Source: Anolis carolinensis (Eukaryota). Taken from it: a stretch of 64,000 bases of DNA. Location: the NCBI RefSeq assembly GCF_035594765.1, contig NW_026943826.1, forward strand, positions 13,495,325 to 13,559,324. Direction: 5' to 3'. This document shows positions 26,005 to 55,406 of the stretch, one piece after another. The notes beneath the pieces were generated by a model. The model was not told the origin of the DNA. It saw nothing but the letters and a program-made list of their open reading frames with translations, and did not search any database. How positions within the stretch are numbered: position 1 is the stretch's first letter; each line of letters opens with the position of its first letter. The position numbers were made by a program, and so were the translations under genes.

Positions 26005-26834
26005 CTATAAATCTTCCAAGAACTGTATTAAGTGATTCAAAGTACTGCGCGAGATTTGCAAATCAAACGGGCCGTAGTCAACAAAGAACGCGATGCCGTG
26101 GAATCCGTCCTTCACATGACACCACGTGACCGGCACGCCGTTGTCCTCGAGCCGTTTCTTGTACAGCAGCCCGTCGTCTCGGACGACGTCGTATTCGCAG
26201 GTCAATAGGAACGCCTCCGGGAGCTGCCGGAGAGTCTCGTCTTCGGCTAAAAGCGGGGAAAACATGGGGTCGAGGCCCTTCGTGCAGAACGGGGGGAGAG
26301 CCTCACAAAACGGAGAAGGCTCCGCCGGGACGTAGCCCCGGGCCTTGAATTCGTCCGGGATGTGGTCCGCGCTGATCCATTTCTGGTACTTTGCCTGCAA
26401 ATCCCGGGTCATGTGAGCGTTCTTCATGAGATAGCCCACGTGCTCGCTCGTCCCCATCAGGTACATTAAGCCGAGCTTCACCGCCCTTTTCTTGAACAAC
26501 GGCGGGATGGAGCAGTTTTGCTGGTAAGAAGGCAAGTTGAAGTCCACAGCTTGGAGGAACGGGTAGAGCAGGGCCTGCGCTCGGATCCGCGGGAGGTCTT
26601 TCCTCGCCGTCAGACGCTGGCAGACTGCCGTGGCGAACGTCCCTCCGCTGCTGTCCCCTCCGACGGTGACGTGGTCGGGATCGACTCCGTAATCCGCCGC
26701 ATGCTTCAAGAAGTGGATCACGGCCGTGCAGCAGTCGAGCAACGGGACCGGATAGAGATGCTCAGGAGCCAAACGATACCTAGAACCAAAGTGAGAACAC
26801 GAACTGAAACCAGAAGCTACTTTACAATATCTGC

Positions 26835-26882
<48 letters not shown>

Positions 26883-29490
26883 TTTATTTATATCCCGCCT
26901 CCATCTCCCCCGAAGGGGACTCGGGGCGGCTCACAGCAAAATCAGATACAAAACAATGATAAAATAAAATATGAAACATCAAAGAACAATAATAAAAACC
27001 AATAATAATATATACACAGCAGCTGAAAAAACGCAACGCGGTACTAAAACATTGAATTAAAAACAATGAGGTTGCAATCGATTTATAGATGGAATTATGA
27101 ACCAAGAGGGGGAATGTGTCATAAATATCATGTGCGAGTTGAATGAAATTGTACAAAATGGACACAACCGGCAGTGATCTCTAATTGGACGAGAATGGAC
27201 ACAACCAGCAGCGACTACAATTCCCAGAACCCTCTTCTAGGAGCCTGTGGCGTTGTGGTTGGCAAAAAAATCTGAAAGATCCAAAACCCGTGTTGATAAA
27301 TGGATCAGTGCACAACCCTATTATCTACTCAGGAAATAAAATGCTGGGCCGTAGAGTTGATTGATTCAATTCGGTTTCCAAAAACAGCGAAGGTAGACAT
27401 AACGCCACTTACCCAACGCTCACCACCACGAACCCGCTTTCTCGGGCGATGTAGCGACACACTCTTTCATACGCCGCTAAAATATAAAGAAAACAGCCAG
27501 ATTACTTCCTAAACTCCTAAACCCACAAACGCTTGAATCCCAGGGTATTTCCAGAGGAATGGGTTGCTGACGTCAAGGAAAGCATTACAGCTTTCGGGAA
27601 TTTTCTGTGAAGGGAAGGTTTGCTGAAACAAGCCACGGCTGGAAATCTCTGGATAAAAAGGGGCCTGGAAGAGCTAACTCTTTGTCAGTAGATAAAGTGG
27701 TAATTTGGTCTTCCTGTCCTCGATCTTGGCTGTATTACTCCCGACCTTGTTTCTGTAATCCTGTTGTCCATGCTGCTGTTCCTGTCACCTTATTGTTGTA
27801 TTCTGAAACCTAGCATCTGGATTTTGGACTAACTTAATGGACTTGAGCTTCATTTTTTACCCCTGATGATTAGGCTCAACTTTGGAAAATTGGCTCCGGT
27901 TTGTATTCCTGAATTTTTTTCTCCTGAACTGGCTTACATAGTAGTCGGTTTGTCTACGTTAATTGGACTCTTGATTTGTTTTACCCTGGCTGTGTAAAGT
28001 GGATTTCACACCTCTATAAACTATATAGACTACATAGTGTCTGATATCGTGTTGTAAGTACGAATCTGACGAATTTGATCCGACGTACGAAAAAATGCAC
28101 AGCTCTAATAGATAAGACAGAGTCGGAATAGGATCTCAAGCTCTTCTAGAGCGAGATTGTTGGACATGCCAAAGACTTACAGATACTTCCCAGCAGGCCG
28201 ACTCCTCCAGGGATGTAGACGATGGCCCTGCTCTTCTCTGACGGTCGGGATTTGGACTGATACATCCGCACCGGCACCCCATCGAACCGCAAGTCCTTAA
28301 TGACCAGCCCCGAATCTCCCAACGGCGGGATGCCGTTCATTACTAGTCGCCAGATTTTGTAACGGCTACAGATGCCGAGTTTCTCGATCCCTAAGGCCTG
28401 TTCAGAGAAACAGAGAAACGGTGAGTGGTAAAGTAGTGTCTTCGTCTGCGAGGAGCGTCCTTCAACCCAAAAGGCATGTCATCCACTCGCAACACTACGC
28501 AACACAGTCTGGAAAAGCGTTCTGTTCTTGGTTTGAAAGTACTATTCCTGCTTAATGGTGGAAAGTAGTTGTAATAATGAGAGTTGTAATCTCACTCCAT
28601 TCAGTGACATAACCACCACAGTAAACTATAAATCCCAGGATAATGGGAGTTGCAGCCGCACTCCATTCAGTGACATAACCACCACGGCAAACTATAAATC
28701 CCATGATTATGGGAGTTGTAGTCCCACTCCATACAGTGACATAACTACGATGGCAAACTATAAATCCCAGGATAATGGGAGTTGAAGTCCCACTCCATAC
28801 AGCGACATAACCACCACGGCAAACTATAAATCCCAGGATTATGGGAGTTGTAGACCCACTCCATACAGTGACATAACCACCACAGCAAACTACATATCCG
28901 AGGATAATGGGAGTTGTAGCCCACTCCATACAGTGACATAACCAGGATGGCAAACTATAAATCCCAGGATAATGGGAGTTATAGTCCTACTCCATACAGT
29001 GACATAACCATCACAGGAAACTACATATCCCAGGATAATGGGAGTTGTAGTCCTACTCCATACAGTAACATAACTACCATGGCAAACTATAAATCGCAGG
29101 ATTATGGGAGTTGTAGCCCCACTTCATTCAGTGACATAACCACCACGGCAAACTACAAATCCCAGGATAATGGGAATTGTAGTTCTTGTATACGAAAATA
29201 TACGATGCCATACGAATCCTGGGATTTGTCAGCTGCGCAATTGATTATTATGATTGTATTGATGGGTGATTGATTAGCGTGACCCTCAAGGGACCGGGTG
29301 GAAGGAGACTCACCAGCGCCAGCAGGACGTTCATCAGGAGGGTCATCCATCGGACTCTGTTGCGCTGTTTGATGCCCGGGGGGAGGTGAGTCCTGGTCAG
29401 GTTGTAGTACACGGCCCGCGCAAACAACCCGCAGAGAGCCCAGGCCCCCAGGGACCGAGCCAGTGCCCACAGACTCCAGGCCAGCTCCAT
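26005..29490 (-). CDS. Arylacetamide deacetylase-like 3/4 family esterase, paralog A (410 aa)
   Basis: Exons 29490-29314, 28397-28181, 27476-27413, 26779-26005 (177+217+64+775 nt), GT-AG and in frame. N-terminal hydrophobic anchor, YRLAPEH, nucleophile GDSSG, DFNLPSYQQN, EYDVVRDDG (Asp), DGFHG (His). Confidence 0.92.
28560..29185. repeat. ~66-bp minisatellite with inverted ACTAYAnnTCCCA / TGGGAGTTGTAG pairs
   Basis: Unit CAAACTATAAATCCCAGGATAATGGGAGTTGTAGTCCCACTCCATACAGTGACATAACCACCACGG, about 10 copies in esterase A intron 1. Confidence 0.9.
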
Positions 29491-29829
29491 CCCGTTGGAG
29501 GCAAGAGGACCAAGGAAGCTCTCCAGATGCCGGGAGATGTCCTTCAGCTTTGGTTGGGTTTCCCAAAGTTTTGAAGAGACACCCTGTGCGACGCCCACGG
29601 GAGAAGGCACTAATTACCCGACGAGCAGCTCAGTGAGTTCGTGAGTGAGGAGTTTGTGATTTGTGTCCTAATGACAACATTCTGGACCGCAGTCCCGCTC
29701 AGGGACTTTTCCACCCATTGCCCTTATCTCTTGGGTTACATCACGACTGCTCGTGGTGGTTGCACCATCCCCAAAAGGTAGGAAGAAGGCCACGATAATA
29801 CAACACCACGCAACACGATGCGTGCTCCC

Positions 29830-31190
29830 GGATTTGGTTCAGGCCCATCATTCGTAGAGGTTGTGGGTGGACTACAACTCCCAAGTCTCCTCAAACTTCT
29901 CCAGTAGGTTGAGTTACTCGTGGGGGTTCTGTGTGACAAGTTTGGTCCAGGTCCATCATCCATGAAGATAACAGGATCCCTGGTTGTGAGTGAACTACAA
30001 CTCCCACTCTGGTGAGTCAGTTCCCACCAAACCCTTCCAGTAGGTTGAGTTACTCATGGGGGTTCTGTGTGACATGTTTGGTCCAGGTCCATCATTGGTG
30101 GAGGTCACAGGATCCCTGGTTGTGAGTGAACTACAACTCCCACTCTGGTGAGTCAGTCTCCTCAAACTCCTCCAGTAGGTTGAGTGGGTCATGGAGGTTC
30201 TGTGTGCCAAGTGAGTTCCAGGTCCATCACTGGTGGAGTGCAGAGTGCCCTTAGGTTGCAGGTGAACTATACATCCCAGTACCTACAACTCCTATAAATC
30301 ATGAGTTCTCCCCAAAGCTCTCTAGTGTGTCCAGTTGCCAATCAATTCCTCTGTTTACTGTGTTAAGGGAGGGGCAGTGGGCGGAGACATGCAAATTCCA
30401 CACCAATGATGAGAGTCAAAAACACTGGGATGCCTGTGGTGGAGGAAACACAGAATTTTGGAGGAAATGGCCTTCACTTGGGTGGTAGGCAGTGTGGTGT
30501 CTGTGGAGGACATTGGCCGGGCTCTTAGATACGTTCACGGTGCTCACCATAACCTGCAATGCCATTGGAGGGAGGGCTATTGGTGTCTCCTGAGCCCTGG
30601 GAGCTATAGTAAGTACACTAGGGTGTCTGGGGTGGAGGAAAAACAGAAAATCTAGGAGGAAATGGTCCCTGGACATATTCACGGCGCTCACCATAACCTG
30701 CAATGTCATTGGAGGGAGGGCCATTGGTGTCTCCCGAGCACTGGGAGCTGTAGTAAGTACACTGGGGTGTCTGGGGTGGAGGAAAAACAGAAAATCTAGG
30801 AGGAAATGGTCCCTGGACATATTCACGGCGTTCACCATAACCTGCAATGTCATTGGAGAGAGGGCCATTGGTGTCTCCCGAGCACTGGGAGCTGTAGTAA
30901 GTACACTGGGGTGTCTGGGGTGGAGGAAAAACAAAAAATCTAGGAGGAAATGGTCCCCGGACATATTCATGGTGCTCACCATAACCTGCAATGTTATTGG
31001 AGGGAGGGCCATTGGTGTCTCCCGAGCACTGGGAGCTGTAGTAAGTACACTGGGGTGTCTGGGGTGGAGGAAAACAAGAAAATCTAGGATTTTCTGCAAT
31101 GTCATTGAAGAGAGAGCCATTGGTGTCTTCTGAGTAGTGGGAGACATAGCTCTTTGTGCAAGTGGGAGCTTATCTGTGGACCACACACGT
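29830..31190. repeat. Interspersed repeat with internal tandem duplications (~130-bp and 150-bp units)
   Basis: Three copies of the ACTACAACTCCC..CCAGTAGGTTGAG unit, then about 4.5 copies of a 150-bp unit (30530-31130). Confidence 0.75.
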
Positions 31191-31909
31191 ACATATACTT
31201 TTATTTTATATATACATATATTTATAATATTATAATATAATATAATGCACTGCATTTCCATGTTTTTATGAGAGGACCAATTAGGACACGGCCTTGATAA
31301 CCCAGTAATCAAAACCGTGTCATATAGTGCAATATATTATAATAATATTATAATATAGTACAATTATAATATAACATGATATTAAATCAAATCAAATTAT
31401 GGTAATATAATAATGAACATAATTATTATAAGGACATAATCCAAATATAACATAGTATAATGTGTTGCAAAATCCCGGGGTTGCACCTCATTGTGTTGCG
31501 TGGAAGCCGGTTGTTGGGTGTCCCGAGTTCGGGGGCGTTTGCAAACAAGTGGGAAAATCACAACAAACCAACCCCGCCGAATGGTGGAACTGCTTAAACC
31601 GGATTGCCTGATAAAGATCCAGCTGAAAAATACACGGAAACTGGATCCGAAAACCTGTGTTGTAACTCGGGAGGAAGCTCACCCGAAAACCTCGAGCCCA
31701 CGTCACCAGTTTTTTAATTGGTTTCTAAAGACAGATGAGATAATAGAGATGTGCGATGCATTAAAAATAGTACAAAACTAGGGGGGCGCTGATACTCGCT
31801 TCTAATGTGTTTATAAAGTATAGTTTGCGAAAAATTCATTACTATGGCGAGAGTAACGAAATTTTGTTACTATTTTTGTTGTGGTGATTGCACATAATTA
31901 ACTATAATT

Positions 31910-33420
31910 TACTAAAGACTAAAGACATCCAAAGCACATACGACTTTCAGCACAGCTAGCTACTAAGACCACATACAAATTATTTGTTTGTACGAATCTA
32001 ATGAAATACTAATGACATACAAAGCACATATGACTTTTTGCACAACCCTACTAGCTACTAAGACGACATGGAAATGATTTGTATGTACGAATCTAACGAA
32101 ATACTAACAACATGTGAAGCACACATGACTTTCTCCACAGCCCTACTAGCTACTAAGACCACATACAAATGATTTGTTTGTACGAATCTAATGAAATACT
32201 AATGACATCCGAAGCACATACAACTTTCTGCACAGCCCTACTAGCTACTAAGACGACATGCAAATGATTCGCATGTACGAATCTACCAAAATATTAACAA
32301 CATCCGAAGCACATAGTTACTAAGACCACGTAAAAATGATTCATATGTATGAATCTAACAAAATACTAACGACATCCGAAGCACATACAACTTTCTCCAC
32401 AGCCCTACTAACTACTAAGACCACATGCAAATGATTCGTATGTATGAATCTAAAAAAATACTAACGACATCCGAAGCACATACAACTTTCTCCACAGCCC
32501 TACTAGCTACTAAGACCACATGCAAATGATTTGTTTGAACGAATCTAATGAAATACTAATGACATCCGAAGCACACATGACCTTCTGCACAGCCCTACTA
32601 GCTACTAAGACCACATGCAAATGATTCGTACATACGAATCTAACGAAATAATAATGATATCCGAAGCACATACAACTTTCTGCACAGCCCTACTAGCTAC
32701 TAAGACCACACGCAAATGGTTTGTATGTACGAATCTAACGAAATACTAATAACATCTGAAGCACATATAACTTTCTGCACAGCCCTACTAGCTACTAAGA
32801 CCACATGCAAATGATTCGCATGTACAAATCTACCAAAATATTAACAACATCCGAAGCACATAGTTACTAAGACCACGTAAAAATGATTCATTCGTATGAA
32901 TCCAACGAAATACAGATGATATCCGAAGCACGTACGACTTTCTGCACAGCCCTACTAGCTACTAAGACCACATGCAAATGATTTATATGTACGAATCTAA
33001 CAAAATACAAACAACATACGAAGCACACATGACTTTCTGCACAGCCCTACTAGCTACTAAGACCACATGCAAATGATTTGAAACTACTAACGACATCCGA
33101 AGCACATACAACTTTAGCACAGCCCTACTAGCGACTAAGACGACATGCAAATGATTCGTACGTACAAATCTAACGAAATACTAATGACATCAGAAGTACA
33201 TACGACTTTCTGAACGGCCCTACTAGCTACTAAGACCACGTGCAAATGATTTGAAAATACTAACGACATCCGAAGCACATACGACTTTAGCATAGCCCTA
33301 CTAACTACTAAGGCCACATGCAAATGATTCCAATGTACAAATCTAATTAAATACTAATGACATCCAAAGCATATATGACTTTAACACAGCCCTGTTAGCT
33401 ACTAAGACCACATACAAATA
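31910..33420. repeat. ~95-bp minisatellite between the esterase paralogs
   Basis: Unit ACGAATCTAACGAAATACTAAYGACATCCGAAGCACATACRACTTTCTGCACAGCCCTACTAGCTACTAAGACCACATGCAAATGATT. Confidence 0.95.
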
Positions 33421-33964
33421 CTTTCAAAGTACGCCTCTAGTTTGGATTGCGCTGCAACAGCTGAAAGGCGCAAACTCCCATCGAGTTAAAAATGTTGTGA
33501 CTAAAACGGGCGAGGAACCCCGGTTGCCACATACAAGGTGGATCAAGGAAAAACGCATTGTAAATTTGCATGAGGCTCAGGTCGTGAAGATAACTTGTAC
33601 GCAAGGATTCGTCATGGGAATATGATGCCAGATGAACGGATAAGGCTGTTTAGGTCGACCCCACTTGCTCAATGCAATGCAATCATGAGAGTTGTAGTTC
33701 GTACTCATTAGTGTAAACTACAACGCCCATGATAGCGTAGTATTGAGCGGTAAGGATGCTCTGGCGCTCTGTACACGCAAAATAACTGACGCCAGATTCG
33801 CTGAGCAGAGCTTGACGACTGGCACTCCGTACATGCGCAATAACTGATGTAACTGAGCGTCGTTGGACGCCTGACTCATTTATTATTCACCCCACAGCTG
33901 CGCATTCCAGAGATCCCGCTCGCAATCCCTTCTGAGTTTCAGGCAACGGAGACGAGCAAAGGCC

Positions 33965-34015
33965 TCTCTTCTTCTTCTTCTTCTTCTTCTTCTTCTTCTT
34001 CTTCTTCTTCTTCTT
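33965..34015. repeat. (CTT)n microsatellite
   Basis: About 15 CTT units. Confidence 0.95.
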
Positions 34016-34194
34016 TCTTAAGGCATGTTGTCGTGCTTCAAAGGGTTTCTATAACAACAACACACTTGCGCAAACTTAGCTGAGCACAAGCAGTCACCTT
34101 GCTGAGCCGTATCTATCGAGCGGCTTTGCTTCTCACTCAAAAGATTTCAAGGTGGGATGGAAATAAATCTGCCTGCCTGTACGTCAAGGGCCGT

Positions 34195-34700
34195 AGCTAG
34201 GTGAAGTGGCCCTTCGCGCTGTCACTGGGTTGGTCATTGCTAGGTGAAGTGGCCCTTCACCAACATCACCTGGGAAGAAAAGTGACACTTGTACGATATG
34301 AGAGAAGCAAAGAGCCACAAAGAGAGCCGCGTTGCTAAGGAGACGTTGTGAAGTAGGTGAAGTGGCCCTTTACAGTGTCACTGAGTTGGTCATTGCTAGG
34401 TGAAGTGGCCCTTCACCAACATCACCTGGGAAGAAATGTGAGACTTGTATGATATGAGAGAAGCAAAGTGCCACAAAGAGAGCCGCATTGCCAAGGAGAC
34501 GTTGTGAAGTAGGTGAAGTGGTCCTTTACAGTGTCACTGGGTTGGTCATTGCTAGGTGAAGTGGCCCTTCACAACATCACCTGGGAAGAAAAGTGACACT
34601 TGTATGATATGAGAGAAGCAAAGAGCCACAAAGAGCTGTGTTGCTAAGGAGACGTTGTGAAGTAGGTGAGGGGCTGGCTATTGCTAGGTGAAGTGGCCCT
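34195..34700. repeat. ~155-bp tandem triplication
   Basis: GCTAGGTGAAGTGGCCCTTCACCAACATCACCTGGGAAGAAA...GTTGCTAAGGAGACGTTGTGAAG repeated three times. Confidence 0.9.
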
Positions 34701-34905
34701 CTGGGACGTCATGAGGGAAAGAAAGATGACACAGGAGTGATAGGATTTGGCATTGAACTTCCCCAGAATGACAGTCTTGGTATTTCTATTTCATGTTATA
34801 ATGTTTGGATCTAACCGAATACTACGTCTCCGACTACGTTCCTTTTACGCCGACGGAGGGACCGTCAGGACTTCCCGGACTTCCTCACCGTCGGCCTATT
34901 GAACG

Positions 34906-37900
34906 TTACAACCCTTCCAAGAAGAGCACCACGTGTTGCAAACTACGCCGCGCGTTGGGGAACTCGAGCAACCCAAAGTCGATGGTGGACGTCATTCCGT
35001 GGACGCCGTCCTCGATGTGGTGCCACGTGACCGGCACGCCGTTGTCGAGCAGGCGCTTCCGGTACAGAATCCCGTCGTCCCGGAGGATGTCGTACTCCGA
35101 GGTTACGAGGAGCGTCTCCGGGAGCTGGCGGATGACGTTGTCTTCGGCCAGGAGCGGCGAAAAGAGACTGTCCAAGCCTTTCTTCAGCGACTCGTACTGC
35201 TCGTTGGAAAACGGAGCGGGCTCCACCGGCCGGTAGCCCCGGGCCTTGAACTCGTCCGGGACGTGGTCCGCGCTCACCCACTTGCTGTACTTCGCCCGCA
35301 GATCCTCCGGGATGTGGTTTCCACTGATAATTCCTTCCACGTCGATGGCTTTCCCGGTGAGATACATGGTGCCATGCGTGAGGGTGAATTTCCGAAACAA
35401 GGGCGGAACGGAGCCGTTCTGCTGATACGACGGCAAGTTGAAATCGACGGCTTGGAGATACGGGTACAAGAGGATCTGAGCCCGGAGTTTTGGGAGGAGC
35501 CGCTTTCCCGCCAGGACCTGGCACACGGCCGCCGAAAACGAGGCCCCGCTGCTCTCCCCCCCGATGCTGATACGGGCCGGGTCCACGCCGTAGTCCGCCG
35601 CGTTCTTCAAAAAGTGTTCGGTCGCGACGCAACAGTCCTGGATTTGGGCCGGGCACGGATGCTCCGGGGCGAGGCGGAAACTGAAACGATAAAGACAACG
35701 CTGCCCATTATGTCTATCCCGCTTTATCGTTCCATGCGGAGACTCACAATCAAAAACATTGCGCCTTAAAATATACAATAAAATAGTATATCATTATATA
35801 CTGTATATACGCGAGTATAAGCCAAGTTTTTCAGCCCTTATACTTGGGTGAGGGTCCTGGTTGGCTTATATTTGGGTCGGCTTAGACTTGAGTATAGATC
35901 AGTGATGGCCAACCTATGCCACGCGTGTCAGCACTGACGCGCCTAGCCATTTTTGCTGACACGCTGCCGCATGCAGATTGATTGGATGACTAATGTCTTT
36001 TGTGGCCAAATTTGGTGTGATTTGGTCCAGTGGTTTTGTTGTTTACTCCATGGGAATTATGCACATTACATTTATTTTATATATATAAAAGGGTAATGAA
36101 ATTTCGGCCTAGGACAAAACAACAAAACTACACATCCCAGAAACACTAAACTTGGCAGCACAACCCATCATCCATGCCTCTAGGTTCATACAACAAAAAA
36201 GCTCCAGCTACTCCAGAAAACGGCCAGGCTTTGAGACTGCAAGGCTATTCACTGCTATTCCACCTGGCCAACAAAGGATTCCCATAAGCCACAGCAACAC
36301 GTGGCTGGGCAAAGCTAATATATATATATATATATCATTCTATTATTATTCTATTATTATTGTAGTATATTATTATGTTACTATTATATTATTATTATTA
36401 TTATATTATTCATGACTACATTGAAACTACAATAGAGAGAAATCAGCGTGGAAACTGCAAGAGGTACCATAGATTGTTGTACATGGAAATAATGGCAGTC
36501 AATAGTTTTTGATTTATTAAATACAGTTATATATTACAATTCTATATTTTTGTTATTTAAACTATATATATTGTGAAATTATGTTTTTTTTCCTCTCAAA
36601 GTGACACACCACCCAAGTCAAGTTTTTTGGTGAATTTTGACACACCAGGCGCAAAAGGTTGCCCATCGTTGGTATAGTTATTATTTTACTCTATTAGTTA
36701 TTGTTATTACATTTATTATTTTACTCTATAACTTTTGTTAGTATAACATTTATAGTAATATAAACAGTTTGTTGGAACAGAAAACAGAATGGCGTAACAG
36801 CACGTGACAATTCTTGTCCCGAATCCTACGTGTCCTGTTTCTAAACAACTCGAGTGAAATGACTTACCCAACGTTCACAACCACGGTGTTACTTTCCCGG
36901 GCGATATAACGGCTCATCCTCTCGTATGCCTCTGAAAAACAAATAATTTGTCGCTGATGGTATTATTTGTTGCATTTCGTAACTGTTTCAATAATCAGTT
37001 GGTCCTGGCATAGAAGTGGGATGGAATATTTAACCTATTAATACCTAGGGACCAGTGACTCATGTTGGGATGCTGGCATAGAAGTGGAATGGACCCATTG
37101 CATGAAAAAAGGCGACAAGAATATTGTGATATTGTGAGACATCGAAGGTATCTAACTCCTTAATAGCTAGGGACGGATGATTCATGTTGTGGAATCAGAC
37201 CCATGGTGGGATGTACACGTTGTCATGTAACAGGGACTGTCGCCAAAATGATGGTCCAAACGCAATGCCTCGCGTAATAAAGTCCCAAGTGTTACGACGG
37301 TATGTTGTAGGCTCCTTTTGCAGAACTTACGGATACTTCCGCACAGCCCAAACCCTCCGGGAACGACCACCATTCCTCTCGCATTCCCAGCAGGCAGCGT
37401 CCGGGGCCAGTAGACCCTCACGTTCACCCCGTCGAAATCCAGGTCTTTCGTGATCAGCGCCGAACTCTTCCTCGGAGCGATGCCTTTGAAGAAGAGTCTC
37501 CAGGCTTCGTAACGGTGACAGAGGCCCACCTTTTCCAGAAACACCGCCTGTTCAGAAGAAGATTTCACAGCACGTTACTATCGATTAGGGATGAGCATAG
37601 TTTCGTTCTCAATTCGTACTTCGGATCCAATTCGTTAAATTCGAAATTATGCATACCCTTACTCTTCATGGCCAGTATAACGAAGTTTAAGATTTCACAG
37701 CACGTTACTATCGATTAGGGATGTGTATAGTTTCGTTCTCAATTCGTACTTCATTAAATTCGAAATTATGCATATCTGTACTCTTCATGGCCAGTATAAC
37801 AAAGTTTAAGATTTCACAGCACGTTACTATCGATTAGGGATGTGCATAGTTTCGTTCTCAATTCGTACTTTGGATCGAATTTGTTAAATTCGAAATTATA

Positions 37901-38526
37901 CATATCCTTACTATTCATGAACAGTTTAACGAAGTTTAAGATTTCACAGCACGTTACTATCGATTAGGGATGTGCATAGTTTCGTTCTCAATTCGTACTT
38001 CGGATCGAATTTGTTAAATTCGAAATTATGCATACCCTTACTATTCATGGCCAATATAACAAAGTTTCTAGAGTAAATAGAACAACTACTTTCAGAGTAA
38101 GAACTGCACAATTAAACAAGGAACAGATATTATTAGTTAAGGGGGTCTCAAAGTGGTATAATTCTACAGTGCGGACATAACCCCCTTTGTTCTCTGTTCC
38201 TCCTGATCCTGGGCTCACCAGTTGATCGGCGTGACTCTTATGTGATGCTTGTTTTGCATACTTCTCGTCTAAGCAATTAGGACAATCCTCACGTTGGAAA
38301 TAAATCAACAGAGGAGGAAAGGAGAATCGTGACAAAAACCCAGGTTGCTTACCAATCGACGTGCGAAATGCATGCCGACCGTCAAAACGAGGAGTTTCCT
38401 TGATGGGTTGATTTCCGCCGGGATGTGAGTCCTGGTCCTAAGGTAATGAACCGCCCTCCCGAAGTAGAAACAGAGGACAGAAACGCTCAGGTAGAGGAGC
38501 AGCCACAGTGCCGAGAGCCCTTCCAT
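34906..38526 (-). CDS. Arylacetamide deacetylase-like 3/4 family esterase, paralog B (409 aa)
   Basis: Exons 38526-38353, 37547-37331, 36931-36868, 35680-34906 (174+217+64+775 nt), same phases as paralog A. FRLAPEH, GESSG, DFNLPSYQQN, EYDILRDDG, DGVHG. Confidence 0.92.
35900..36671. mobile_element. Nonautonomous hAT element containing a nested Helitron (36078-36318)
   Basis: TIRs CAGTGATGGCCAACCT / AGGTTGCCCATCGTTG; 8-bp TSD GTATAGAT / GTATAGTT (7/8 match). Confidence 0.8.
37558..38070. repeat. ~125-bp tandem repeat abutting the esterase B exon 2 acceptor
   Basis: AAGATTTCACAGCACGTTACTATCGATTAGGGATG...AAGTTT, four copies. Confidence 0.9.
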
Positions 38527-39699
38527 CCCTGCAGCCGCGAAGCCGAGGACGGCAGCTGGAGGAAGGCAGCTGTTCCGACTTGCAAGGCGGCTGTGGCTGG
38601 AGCAATATCTCGGGACACTTTCCCAGGTTGGGAAAAGAAAGCGAGATGAAAGATATCCGTTAGGAAGACGCCCTTCCCACCCACGGAAGACATTGATAAA
38701 AGGACTTTCTCCCCCCCAAAGCATGTGACAAAGCGATTCGATCCGAATCACGAGGACATCCATCTCCAGAAGCCGCATCGTGAGGTGCATCACTTCACTG
38801 ACCCAAAGTGTTTCTTGCCCCAACGAGGTAGATACGTCACAAATCCTCTCATCCTTCCCCGATTATTTTCTCCTTAGGAAAACTCTAGGAAGCAAATCCA
38901 TTGTGGGCTTTGTTTGCTTGTTTCTGCAGCCCATGGTGAAGGCACCACCACAATCATCCATCCATCCACAATCCGCCATGCCAATCATGCCCATGGTGAA
39001 GACACAATAGTCTATCCACAATCCACCATACCAATCATGCCCACAGTGAAGGAACCACCACAATAGTCCATCCACAATCCATCATGCCAATCATGCCCAT
39101 GGTGAAGACACCACAAGTCTATCCACAATCCACCACAACTATCATGCCCATGGTGAAGGCACCATCACAATCATCCATCCACAATCCGCCCATGGTGAAG
39201 GCACCACCACAATTGTCCATCCACAATCCGCCATAGGCAGGGTTCCCAGTCATATTCCTCCTCCAATCGGAATAACACTTTCAAACCAGGAGCAGAAACG
39301 TTTCCTTCGCAGATGAGGAGGAACCGGTTTGCAGCTTTGCTCCATTATCGGCAAAGTGAGCACACTCTTTCCTTGCCAATTGCAGTGCATCATCAAAACC
39401 CCACCCGATTTTTCCTCCTTCTGCGTTATTTGGGAAACAATGCCGCCTCCATCTGCAGAAGTCATTTCCATGACTGATAAGATGATGCTTCAGCCCCACC
39501 TCCGTCAAGCTCTCCTTCTGCAGCTCTTCCAAATGCAGGAAGTATTCGATTATCATGACATCCCGATAAGATTCCCCAAAATGTAGAAGTCCCATCTGTG
39601 AAATGCTGGAAAAAATTGTGTTTCTTAATATTGTCTCATATGTACAGATCTTACAAAAATAATACGACTTCTGCACAGTCCTATTGTGCATTACATTGT

Positions 39700-46137: not shown

Positions 46138-49100
46138 GACACAGCAAACAAGATAGACATGCTGGATTTCGTATCACAAAACCACAAGTCCGACACTTCC
46201 CAAGTGTCTAGGACTGTGTGATGTATTTTCGGATCCCAGCAGAGAGTTCTGTCTCCTTCTTCAGGGTCCCATTTGTGAGCCAGAGGTCTTCTCCTTATCA
46301 GCTTTTCCTTAAATTTTGTCAAAGAACTTTCCATGCAATGTTTTGTCGTGCCAGCTGTCAGCTCTAGTTTGTAGTGCGGTTTTCTTGTACTTATTTGTAG
46401 TGCGGTTTTCTTGTACTTATTATTATTATTTACTCACCAATGGCCAGCTGGGGCAGCGTGCATCCCAGCCGCTCCGCGATGGCTTGCAACTCTTTCAGCT
46501 TGGCTTGTTGCCGCCTGCCTTCCTCGCTCAGGATCTTGTCCTTCAGCCACTGGTAGCCCTGCAACGGAGGAGGCGGACACAACAATCAGAGGGCAGCCAC
46601 GGTGCTGACCCCCAATTCTGAGCGTTCAGATGAGGAAGGAGGGGATACTGGGAGAGACTCAGAGGGCCCAGAGGACACTGGAAATGTTTTGGGATCCCCT
46701 GGCAGGTCCCATGTGACTGGAGAAGACAATACCAGTTCTCACAAGAACCCGTCAGAAGTGCAGGCTGAGAAATGTGGGAGACGAATGATTCTCTAGGTCA
46801 AGGAGATTGAAATTGAGGAGTTAAGAAATACTCGTTTCTCACAGCGAACGAGAGATAAGGAGTGGGAAGGCAGGCGCAGGAGAAACGATCTAATGGGAGG
46901 GATTCTGGCTGTGGTGTGGTTTGTGGTGAAAAGAGACTTCGAGGTCCTGGTAGTGCAGTGGTTCCCAACCTTTGGACGTCCAGGTGTTTTGGACGTCGAC
47001 TCCCAGAATCCGATTCCTGAAGTCCAAAACATCCGGAGGCCCGAAGGTTGGGATCCGTCCTAAGAAAACGCCGACCGTCAATCAGGCCGATTGAGACTCA
47101 CTTTGAGCGACGCCCGCGAGTAAGGCGGGATCCCGCCGTCGTATTTCCCCGACACGATTCCGCACGCCAGGGGGGACCACGTCATCGCGCCCACGCCTGT
47201 GGGAAGGAAAGGAGACCAGGTTGGCTTTCCCAGCATCCATATTGCTGGGCCAGTGGGGGAGCGAATGGCACGCACCGATCTTGTGGAAAAGCTCCGGAAG
47301 CTGGACCTCGACTTTCTCCCGCTGGAACATGTGGTACTCGGCTTGTTCGCAGATGGGAGGGATGAGGTTGAATTGCCGCGCCACCGAATAGGCTTCCTGC
47401 AGGTGTGTTACATAGGGTAACATATCATAATTATTTAATAACACAACTATAATATTAGAATATATACTATACTATAATATTTTTTAAATATTTGAAATAA
47501 TTTGGAAATGACATATCCCACTGGCTATTTCCCGAGCCAAGGGTTTGCGACTCGCATCACTCAGGAATGAAAATCATAGTGTAATATATTATAATTATTT
47601 AATAGTACAACTATAATATTAGAATAAATACTATACTATAATATTTTTAATATTAGAAATAATTGGGAAATGACATATCCCACTGGCTATTTCCCGAGCC
47701 AAGAGTTTGCCACTTGCATCACCCAGGAATGGAAATCATAGTGTTGCATAGTGTAATATAGTGTATCTATTTAATACTATAAATATAATATAATATTTGT
47801 AAATATTAGAAACAATTAGGAAATGACATATCCCACTGGCTATTTCCCGAGCCAGGAGTTTGCAACTCGCATCACCCAGGAATGGAAATCATAGTGTTGC
47901 ATAGTGTAATATAGTATAATTATTTAATAATATAATATAATATAATATTTTTAAATATTAGAAACAATTAGGAAATGGCATATCCCACTGGCTATTTCCT
48001 AAATCAAGAGTTTGCCACTCGCATAACTCAAGAATAGAAATCATAGTGTTACATAGTGTAATATATTATCATTCTTTAACAATACAACTATAATATTATG
48101 ATATGTACTATAACATAATACATTAATATTTTTAATATTAGAAATGGTATTTCCCACTGGCCATTTCCCGAGCCAAGAGTGTGCGACTCGCATTGCTCAG
48201 GAATTACATAGTGTAATATAATTATTTAATAATACAATCCTTGATCCGGTCAGCGTCTTCCGAAAACGGGCACAAATCTCTCCAGGGCAGCAAAAAAGGA
48301 CAGATGGACGAGCAGATTGAACCGCGCTTGCGAGAGTCCCTTTTTGCTTGGAACGACATCGGTCCCTTCGTGGTCGCCAATCGGGAAGAGTGACGAGCGA
48401 AGGTCTTTGGCTTCTCGCTCAAGGGACGGGTTCTCCCCTCCCCGCGCCCGACTCCATATCCACCCTCCTCCTCCTCATGAGATCTGAGCAGCAGCTAATG
48501 AAGCAGAAACACATCTGCAAGCAACACACGGCGCCGGAGCACCGCTGTCTCCTCACATCAGGCTGAGATGTTTTGCCTCCAGACCTCCGGCCTCACAGGC
48601 AACCGCCACGGCTTCCGTGCTGAACGACCGGATCACAACATCTAGCAGACCAGCAAGACAGGCCTCTCTCCTCTAAGTGGTCAGACATCCATTTCCAGTT
48701 GTGAAAGGAAACACTGCCGGGTCTCATTCATATTAATCATACAAAGGAGGGTATCCCATTCTGATTAGTAATCCAGAGATTTGTATTAACGAATTCTACA
48801 AATCTCTGAATCATGAAAACAGATTTCCGAAGCATTTGCACAATCCTAATATGTGCGTTAATAGATTTTGTGTGTGTGTGTGTTTAACTCTGTCTTGAGA
48901 TAGGAGAGGTGGGTAAGAAATACAATTATCATCATTATTATTATCATTGTTATTATTTATAATTCCTTCAGAGATTGTATTAACGAATCCTACAAATCTC
49001 CGAATTACAAAAATGGATTTCTGAAGCACTTGCACAACCCTAAGAACTACATTAATAATTTTTTGCGTATGTGTTTAACTCTGCCTTGAGATAGGAGAGG

Positions 49101-53779: not shown

Positions 53780-55406
53780 TACAGGTCCATCCAGGTCTCT
53801 CCCCCAAACCAAAGCATTCTTCAAACTATGGGCCACCTCGGTCTTCCCCGACCACAAAAAGGTCTTCAAAATAATAATAATAATAATAATAATTATTATT
53901 ATTATTATTATAATAAACTACAGGTCCATCCAGGTCTCTCCCCCAAACCAAAGCAATCTTCAAACTACGGCCCACGGGCCACTTACGGCCCTCCAAGGTC
54001 TCTCCCCGTCCCCAAACAATCTTCAAACTACGGCCCGGAAAAATGTTTTCACACGCGATGTTCAAGCTACATACGGCCCAAGGTCTTTCCTCAAACCAAA
54101 ACGATCTTCAAATAATAGGTCACCTACGGCCCAAAAAACGAAAGAGCGAAAGTCGGGAAGAGAGAGGGAAGGCATTCGTAAAGAGTGGCGCAAGCGGGCC
54201 GAACCTGGGACTATGGCTCTGAAATGTGGCCCGGGTTTATTGTTATTATCGTTGTTGTTGCTAGTGAGTCCTAGGCAAATGTCTCCCATTTGTAGGAACG
54301 GGAAACGCAACGGTTGCGACTTACCGTTCACCGATTCAACCAGACTCCCTGCTCTGAGAGACTTAATCGCTTGCATCCAGACCCGGGAGAAGTCCCAGAA
54401 TCCCCCTTGAGTAGCAACCCGTAGAGGTATTTCCGGACGGGGAGACGGGTTGGGGAGCCGTGCCTTACCTTCCATGGGCGTGTTGGGGTCCGGCCGGTTG
54501 GCAAACACCACGTCCACGTATTCCAGCTGCAGACGCTCCAGGGAGGCCTTCAAGCCTGGCGGAGAGCAAGGAAGAGGCTGTCTGTCTGTCTGTCTATCCA
54601 TCTAAATATCTAAAGGCAGTACCTATTTATCTACTCACATTCCCGCATGGGAAAATTCGCTCCCTCGATCTCTCCCAGGAGGAAAGCCACACACGCTTTT
54701 ACTCACCTTCTATGATGTGTTTCCGGGAAAGGCCTCGCTCCGTCTCGGCCCTGGAAGGAAAAGAGGCCGAGGTGAGGACGTGGTCACCGCTTTTTAATAC
54801 TGTTCACAATTAATATTCCGTTTTAACGTTTGCATCCTTTTGTAAATGGTATTGCCATGGGCTCTACTGTCAGCCACTTCAGGATACAAATAATAATTAA
54901 AATAATGCAGTAATAAAAATTATAATATAAAATAATAAAATCTATATATATAAAAGAGTGATGGCATCACGGCGACGCAGAAAACAACAAAACTACAGGC
55001 CCCCCAACCTCGAAATTTGACAACACAACCCATCATCCACGCCTCTAGGTTGATACAACAAAAAGAAAAGAAAAATAAAGTCCTAATTAGAGAGAGAGAG
55101 GAATAATTGCTTTTATTCAATTGCTGCCAGTTAGAAGGCTAAGCTCCTCCAACTTGGTCTCCTAGCAACCCAATAAAAAATAATAATAATCACTAAAAAT
55201 TAATACAATAAAATACTATAATAACAGAAAATAACTAAAAATAATACAAGAAAATAATAAAATATAATAAATGAAAAGATAACTTACAATAAAATTAATT
55301 TTAAAAAATACAAATAACGTCAAATAAAAATTACACAACAATTTTTAACCAATACCACCACCACTTTGCCACAGCAACGCGTGGCCAGGCACAGCTAGTA
55401 ATAATA

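What the first reader, a model, noticed from the sequence alone, without database searches (positions are those of the whole stretch)
28181..37380. Both AADACL paralogs replace the HGGG oxyanion motif with PGG while keeping the Ser-Asp-His triad
Seen: paralog A reads IVYIPGGVGLLGS and paralog B reads MVVVPGGFGLCGS at the position where HSL/AADAC-family esterases have (F/Y)HGGG. The nucleophile (GDSSG/GESSG), Asp (EYD..RDDG) and His (DG.HG) are intact, and both ORFs are uninterrupted. The shared His->Pro in two well-diverged copies implies it predates the duplication and has been maintained. Inference: a subfamily with a remodelled active site, e.g. altered specificity or acyltransferase activity, possibly in skin lipid or semiochemical metabolism.
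Basis: partly seen in the sequence, partly recalled or inferred. Interest (0 to 1): 0.7.

Follow-up and report, generated by a model that had tools for sequence, protein, structure and literature searches.

The report
Lizard esterases with rewired active sites
Two intact lizard genes for membrane-anchored fat-ester-cleaving enzymes carry a proline where almost all vertebrate relatives examined have a histidine; they likely still work as esterases with a retuned pocket, while seven neighbouring copies in the same gene cluster have also swapped the catalytic serine for cysteine, whose effect is untested.

Summary
Observation confirmed. Genes A (29490-26005) and B (38526-34906) are intact four-exon AADACL4-like genes, 54% identical, reading PGGVG/PGGFG for HGGGW, with Ser-Asp-His kept. 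A is spliced in 3 of 4 runs laid. Pro is iguanian: 13 of 26 iguanian rows, 0 of 166 others; orthologs in Sceloporus (A, B) and Pogona (B) keep it. Interpretation only partly holds. The His is not an oxyanion-hole donor; bacterial esterases of this fold with solved structures use PGGG. The change touching the hole (third Gly to Val/Phe) is shared by most sauropsid subfamily members. A single origin before the A/B duplication is unresolved (no free tree joins them; AU 0.04-0.79), and His was lost at least twice (AU 0.033). Best reading: working serine esterases with a retuned pocket in a 17-gene cluster; acyl transfer and skin role untested. More surprising: seven cluster paralogs outside the window pair Pro with a Ser-to-Cys nucleophile, shared with Anolis sagrei, one shown spliced. 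My paper searches found no description; the scan had not noted this before.

The parts
29314..29490 (-). Gene A exon 1 (ATG, hydrophobic N-terminal anchor)
   Evidence: its 3' end appears as the loose end at 28398 in contigs of X1 and X13
28181..28397 (-). Gene A exon 2, ends with IVYIPGGVGLLGS; Pro122 codon CCT at 28211-28209
   Evidence: covered by spliced contigs
27413..27476 (-). Gene A exon 3 (64 nt)
   Evidence: joints on both sides in 3 of 4 runs
26005..26779 (-). Gene A exon 4: Ser196 (26652-26650), Asp350 (26190-26188), His380 (26100-26098), stop
38353..38526 (-). Gene B exon 1 (ATG, hydrophobic N-terminal anchor); frame is open further upstream, and P0129 is modelled 88 aa longer
37331..37547 (-). 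Gene B exon 2, ends with MVVVPGGFGLCGS; Pro121 codon CCC at 37361-37359
36868..36931 (-). Gene B exon 3 (64 nt)
34906..35680 (-). Gene B exon 4: Ser195 in GESSG (35553-35551), Asp349 (35091-35089), His379 (35001-34999), stop

Best explanation
Genes A and B are intact AADACL3/4-type genes in a lizard tandem cluster whose proteins keep the Ser-Asp-His triad and the key oxyanion-loop glycine, and they likely still act as membrane-anchored serine esterases on lipid esters, with a pocket likely retuned by the changed loop. Mechanism: Ser196 (A) would attack the ester, His380/Asp350 act as base, and the backbone NH groups of Gly124 and Val125 (Phe in B) plus the residue after the serine would hold the oxyanion (inferred from HSL-family structures). 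The His->Pro change sits one residue before the loop glycines, at the end of the beta strand; it removes a side chain and likely stiffens or repositions the loop but takes away no oxyanion donor. The size swap GGGW -> GG(V/F)G, shared with most of the sauropsid subfamily, is the likelier driver of substrate preference. Shown: gene structure, motifs, splicing of A, taxonomic spread, purifying selection. Inferred: activity, geometry, substrate, tissue.
For: Intact frames and triad. Spliced transcripts of A in 3 of 4 runs, 3 studies. dN/dS A vs B 0.32 (0.23-0.44). Orthologs 80-82% identical in A. sagrei, 66-72% in Sceloporus, 54% in Pogona, all with Pro and triad. AlphaFold2 model of A: mean pLDDT 93.8, HSL fold, best match Est8 Z 39.8, rmsd 2.0 A over 299 residues; strand ends at 121, loop from 122. 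Gly124 invariant in 90 of 90 aligned and in 122 of 124. Oxyanion residues are the second and third Gly in LipN (PMC10099132 passages) and Gly107/Ala108 in active LpEst1 (PMC3963902 passages). 76 of 80 bacterial ICPGGGY proteins match the AADACL profile at E<1e-3 and 77 of 80 have GxSxG 70-92 residues on; PDB 6A6O, 4Q3K, 3HXK, 3BXP read PGGG and 3BJR PGGS at this site; 3BXP scores like 4BZW, the characterised carboxylesterase Cest-2923 (PMC4949240 passages). Third Gly kept in only 15 of 97 squamate rows.
Against: No activity data on any of these proteins. In LipN, Gly->Ala at the two oxyanion positions cut kcat/KM 15- to 140-fold, so Val/Phe at the third position may weaken catalysis. The bacterial PGGG enzymes differ around the site (GFSAG/GSSAG, no acid before the serine), so they show tolerance of Pro in another context. 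His is kept in 164 of 166 non-iguanian rows and 128 of 130 readable distant representatives, so it matters in most backgrounds. The model's pLDDT dips to 83 for residues 111-120 and atomic geometry could not be measured. Expression of B and tissue of expression were not tested.
Confidence: 0.55

Rival explanations
1. His->Pro is a near-neutral change, fixed after duplication and then entrenched; A and B work like their His-bearing paralogs.
For: One-base change; His is not catalytic; Pro also appears in 2 of 130 distant animal-like representatives with intact triad and widely in bacteria; the cluster tolerates many other changes here (Ser, Ala, HPG, YGG).
Against: His is lost at least twice within iguanians (AU 0.033) but almost never elsewhere (164 of 166 His); Pro is kept in all 7 A/B-clade rows.
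Confidence: 0.2
2. One reading: Pro reshapes the active site so that A and B favour acyl transfer (for example wax- or sterol-ester synthesis in skin) over hydrolysis.
For: HSL-family enzymes can show promiscuous acyltransferase activity (stated in PMC10099132 introduction); relatives are skin-linked (AADACL3 in mammals, PMC10277264 passages; AADACL4B in chicken keratinocytes, PMC8742010 passage); repeated His loss in one lineage suggests selection.
Against: The same paper ties acyl transfer to the cap domain, not the His; a PGGG bacterial relative is a plain carboxylesterase; no tissue or substrate data for the lizard genes.
Confidence: 0.13
3. A and B are weak or non-catalytic lipid-binding proteins on the way to pseudoenzymes, as the Cys-bearing neighbours may be.
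For: Three changes in one catalytic loop; B also lost the Tyr two residues before the His site and has Glu for Asp before the serine, an Asp-Tyr contact that holds the loop in LpEst1; A/B dN/dS 0.32 exceeds g14/g15 0.14.
Against: Ser, Asp and His are all kept in 7 of 7 A/B-clade rows across three genera; dN/dS is like that of His-bearing g01/g02 (0.29).
Confidence: 0.12

Closest known systems
Vertebrate AADACL3/AADACL4 (arylacetamide deacetylase-like) family
   Same: Sequence (44-82% over exon 4 to named AADACL3/4 hits), length about 410 aa, N-terminal hydrophobic segment, triad, Abhydrolase_3 domain, tandem cluster; gene A is already annotated as AADACL4 (P0056).
   Different: His of HGGG replaced by Pro; seen only in iguanian rows among named hits. 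Seven cluster paralogs also have Cys for the catalytic Ser.
Sauropsid HGG(V/I/A)G-GDSSG subfamily of AADACL4 (birds, turtles, crocodilian, lizards, snakes)
   Same: A and B nest in it and share the lost third Gly and W->G change.
   Different: Pro at the His site; B has Phe at the third position and GESSG.
Bacterial PGGG esterases of the BD-FAE/HSL-like group (Cest-2923/3BXP, MGS-M1 4Q3K, 6A6O, 3HXK, 3BJR)
   Same: Same fold, Pro at the same place, same spacing to GxSxG.
   Different: Soluble, about 270-330 aa, GFSAG/GSSAG elbow, remote in sequence: convergence, not kinship.
Cys-Asp-His alpha/beta hydrolases (dienelactone hydrolase, PHA synthase; recalled, not tested)
   Same: Cys at the nucleophile elbow, as in paralogs g07-g13.
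   Different: g07-g13 are nested within AADACL4 and got Cys by AGT->TGT; P0097 and P0080 hit Abhydrolase_3/BD-FAE, not DLH.

Membership tests
HSL-family (Abhydrolase_3) serine hydrolase | Abhydrolase_3 domain and HSL fold | tested here: met
   PF07859 157.6 bits (A), 143.8 (B via P0129), cut-off 25; VIA-align Z 39.8, rmsd 2.0 A, 299 aligned to 4YPV
HSL-family (Abhydrolase_3) serine hydrolase | GxSxG nucleophile elbow with Ser, plus Asp and His of the triad | tested here: met
   GDSSG/GESSG, EYD, DGxHG in A and B
HSL-family (Abhydrolase_3) serine hydrolase | Literal HGGG oxyanion motif | tested here: not met
   PGGV/PGGF. The literal motif is also absent from 146 of 192 readable AADACL3/4 rows, so it does not define this subfamily
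HSL-family (Abhydrolase_3) serine hydrolase | Ester hydrolysis | not testable with these tools
   needs assay
AADACL3/4 | Groups with annotated AADACL3/4 proteins in a tree | tested here: met
   nested among lizard, turtle, bird and frog AADACL3/4 rows; AADAC, AADACL2 and NCEH1 were not in the trees as named outgroups
AADACL3/4 | Shared exon structure with cluster paralogs (217/64/about 775 nt) | tested here: met
AADACL3/4 | N-terminal membrane anchor | tested here: inconclusive
   hydrophobic windows peak 2.05 at residue 4 in B, 1.9 at residue 51 in A; long N-terminal helix 2-33 in the model; topology not tested
AADACL3/4 | Skin-biased expression | not testable with these tools
   runs are coded, tissue not given
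   not recovered in free trees; AU 0.79, 0.32, 0.055, 0.040, 0.24
   AU 0.033 with the better search; 0.35 with the quick search
Acyltransferase-type HSL esterase | Acyl transfer favoured over hydrolysis in water | not testable with these tools
   needs assay

The most novel reading that the evidence does not exclude
Loss of the HGGG histidine is a repeated, permissive first step in iguanian AADACL4 genes that let anoles evolve a Cys-Asp-His enzyme class from a serine esterase: paralogs g07-g13 (and A. sagrei counterparts) use a thioester intermediate to transfer acyl groups, building skin or signalling lipids, with A and B as the Ser-bearing intermediate state.
Probability: 0.15. Interest if true: 0.8.

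Novelty: new variant of a known kind. Interest (0 to 1): 0.42.

Why it matters
AADACL3/4 are poorly studied, skin-linked lipid enzymes with no known substrate. One lizard cluster holds a natural series at the active site (HGGG/Ser, HGGV/Ser, PGGV/Ser, SGGA/Ser, PGGG/Cys) among close paralogs. That makes two questions directly testable: what the conserved HGGG histidine does, and whether a vertebrate esterase can switch to a cysteine nucleophile and stay useful. The window's own two genes are the milder end of that series.

Tried and rejected
Assembly or frame artefact: rejected. Pseudogenes: rejected for A and B. PGG widespread in ordinary orthologs: rejected for named sauropsid, amphibian and fish rows; no named mammalian AADACL3/4 came up in the three searches, so mammals are covered only by unnamed representatives. 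Gene conversion of exon 2 between A and B: no sign; dS is 1.11 in exon 2 and 1.07 elsewhere, and their lower dS against each other goes with high GC3 (0.75, 0.80 against 0.57, 0.64). The careful treekit search did not finish (quick tree used) and one IQ-TREE script timed out (its free tree was read). No run was on record as RNA (no RNA holder listed); I relied on splice joints. Run X3 covered exon 4 of A only; X9 and X11 had nothing on g07: no evidence either way. Paper searches for PGGG precedent and for the EST2 G84S study found nothing usable; one search was mostly noise. Look-ups of earlier findings by sequence and words were empty. Four distant matches on contig C3 were not examined. No complex was predicted.
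Full report
Observation. Six-frame translation finds the stated motifs on the minus strand. Exon ends read from the sequence give two four-exon genes: A at 29490-29314, 28397-28181, 27476-27413, 26779-26005 and B at 38526-38353, 37547-37331, 36931-36868, 35680-34906. All introns are GT-AG, the proteins are 410 and 409 aa with no internal stop, 222 of 410 positions are identical, and no third copy lies in the window. The finding's coordinates omit A's triad-bearing exon and B's first exon. A equals P0056, named AADACL4 of Anolis carolinensis by its source; B matches P0129 at 408 of 409. The window is therefore from an anole and both genes are already modelled in public sets. Contigs from 3 of 4 runs laid (three studies) join A's exons 2-3-4 at the predicted sites, two show the exon 1 end as a loose end, and the three cover the Pro codon with no difference listed there. 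The runs are only guessed to be RNA and carry no tissue label. B's expression was not tested.

The cluster. A search of the own genome gave 24 matches, 20 of them near full length. I fetched the stretches holding the 18 outside the window and built exon 2-4 models for all 20. Seventeen lie at C17:13.33-13.53 Mb; A and B stand about 55 kb from the other fifteen. At the His site 7 of the 17 have His, 1 Ser and 9 Pro. The motif series is HGGA, HGGA, HGGG, HGGG, HGGI, SGGA, PAGG, PGGA, PGGA, PPCA, PSGG, PGGG, PGGG, HGGV, HGGV, PGGV (A), PGGF (B). Seven genes (g07-g13) read GECSG, with TGT Cys at the nucleophile position.

Spread. Two homolog searches listed 213 distinct database proteins (best 120 of 610 and of 453). 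I dropped 21 that lack or mis-model the motif region (4 of them by hand). Of the 192 left, 26 iguanian rows have Pro 13, His 6, Ser 4, Ala 3; 166 others have His 164, Tyr 2, Pro 0. The iguanian rows include A. carolinensis proteins that repeat the own genes, and rows are not independent. A third search (best 120 of 566) added 32 rows: 31 His, 1 Tyr, no Cys nucleophile; shark, fish, amphibian and tuatara rows there keep HGGG(W/F), apart from one caecilian HGGAF. Of 149 new unnamed representatives from the profile search, 130 were readable: 128 His and 2 Pro, the two being distant (28-29% identity) with triad intact; none of 145 readable nucleophiles was Cys. But exact HGGG is itself a minority (46 of 192): the third Gly is Val, Ile or Ala in a subfamily that spans birds, turtles, a crocodilian and squamates (kept in 15 of 97 squamate rows).

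Origins. A groups with A. sagrei P0063 and Sceloporus P0020; B with A. sagrei P0005, Sceloporus P0007 and Pogona P0053. Trees used 124 of 233 rows, then 56 and 35, thinned for coverage and redundancy, with the His/Pro and nucleophile columns removed in the last two sets. No free tree joined A and B; the best search put A with His-bearing g14/g15 and the anole clade (bootstrap 95). Forcing A+B together cost only 1.6 log units (AU 0.32; 0.79 against a poorer quick tree); on DNA of 10 own paralogs AU was 0.055 overall, 0.040 for exons 2-3 and 0.24 for exon 4. H122P is the only derived residue that the A and B clades share, and it is a one-base change. Forcing all iguanian non-His genes together was rejected (AU 0.033; not rejected in the quick run, 0.35). 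Thus His was probably lost at least twice, perhaps three times; 'predates the duplication' is possible but not shown. Selection: A vs B dN/dS 0.32 (0.23-0.44), g14/g15 0.14, g01/g02 0.29 (Nei-Gojobori, near saturation).

Mechanism. The AlphaFold2 model of A (pLDDT 93.8) has the HSL fold, with strand 115-121 ending just before Pro122. In this family the oxyanion hole is made by backbone NH groups of the second and third Gly positions and the residue after the serine: Gly144/Gly145 in LipN (PMC10099132, passages), Gly107/Ala108 in LpEst1 (PMC3963902, passages), Gly53/Gly54/Ala127 in TtEst2 (PMC4655241, passages). In A these are Gly124, invariant in 90 of 90 aligned, and Val125. The His is not among them. 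Solved relatives read PGGG (6A6O, 4Q3K, 3HXK, 3BXP) or PGGS (3BJR); 3BXP scores almost as 4BZW, the characterised carboxylesterase Cest-2923 (PMC4949240, passages), whose own alignment I did not see. Pro at this site is thus compatible with an esterase. Against a simple reading: Gly->Ala at the LipN oxyanion positions cut activity 15- to 140-fold, and the bacterial enzymes lack the acid before the serine. The residue after HGGG tunes chain-length preference in several enzymes, which points to the GGGW->GG(V/F)G swap as the likelier specificity switch. I commit to working esterases with a retuned pocket (0.55). A skin-lipid role rests on analogy: AADACL3 is reported in human skin, breast and placenta and is lost in pangolins and cetaceans (PMC10277264, passages); AADACL4B rises in chicken keratinocytes (PMC8742010, one passage).

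The cysteine paralogs. In the 124-row set Cys occurs in 13 of 26 non-His rows and 0 of 98 His rows; all 13 are anole genes of one clade, so this is one or two events, not thirteen. All seven own genes have open exon 2-4 frames where about 19 stop codons would be expected under neutrality (rough estimate); six have an intact first exon, g10 has none that I could find. Mean dN/dS is 0.65 (0.49-0.87), relaxed or diversifying. g07 is spliced in 1 of 4 runs laid, and contigs of 2 runs cover its Cys codon without difference. Its model from P0097 keeps the fold (pLDDT 89.4). Signs of decay also exist: g11 has Glu for the triad Asp, g10 reads PPCA, and stray exon-1 copies lie in the cluster. From general knowledge (recalled), Ser->Cys usually cripples esterases, while some alpha/beta hydrolases use Cys naturally; both outcomes are open.

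Novelty. The family and both genes are known; the motif variants seem undescribed. Searches of the held library for AADACL+squamate (1 chicken paper), arylacetamide deacetylase+lizard+skin (0), AADAC with family-expansion terms (listing only; 19 of 20 listed lacked AADAC) and AADAC+lizard (1 chicken paper, listing only) found no account of them. Subscription journals are mostly not held and no supplements were read, so genome-paper tables could mention the expansion. The scan's notes held one parallel case in this genome, a cholinesterase-like cluster, which I did not check. Verdict: a real, lineage-restricted new variant of a known enzyme family; the His->Pro change alone is modest, the neighbouring Ser->Cys clade is the part most worth an experiment. 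Interest 0.42.

Noticed in passing
G000:C17:13387497-13449167 (L007-L013), genes g07-g13: Seven AADACL4-like paralogs with Pro at the His site and Cys (TGT) for the catalytic Ser (GECSG); A. sagrei proteins P0013, P0071, P0084, P0086, P0088, P0089 also have Cys; g07 is spliced in one run.
   Followed up: partly
G000:C17:13384760, 13426576, 13427567 (L006, L011): Stray first-exon copies without a matching gene, two of them broken; g10 has no first exon found. Signs of birth-and-death turnover.
   Followed up: partly
G000:C17:12202451-12211726 (L018-L019) and C4:90917541-90924365 (L020): Three further AADACL3/4-like genes outside the main cluster, all with His (HGGAG, HGGGF, HGGCA).
   Followed up: partly
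database rows P0011, P0014, P0017, P0091, P0100, P0221: Lacertids show other changes in the same motif (HPG, YGG), Pogona one YGG; several lacertid paralogs also vary next to the catalytic His (DACHAT, DAGHAG).
   Followed up: no
database rows P0345, P0382: Distant unnamed AADAC-like proteins (28-29% identity) with PGGGW and an intact triad: independent His->Pro outside lizards.
   Followed up: no
window 8942-9301 (-), 16371-16718 (+), 47085-47471 (-), 54065-54601 (-): Neighbouring genes: a ribosomal L22e exon (weak Pfam hit), a B-box zinc finger exon, and aldo-keto-reductase-like exons; the names RPL22, RNF207 and KCNAB2 are recalled, not tested. The first two lie between gene A and the rest of the cluster.
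   Followed up: partly
window 38526-38862 (-): The frame of gene B's first exon stays open upstream of the ATG; P0129 is modelled with 88 extra N-terminal residues, probably an annotation choice.
   Followed up: no
window 28590-29190, 30590-31100, 31900-33420, 34190-34700, 37570-38060: Tandem-repeat-like arrays in the introns and between the two genes, seen by eye.
   Followed up: no
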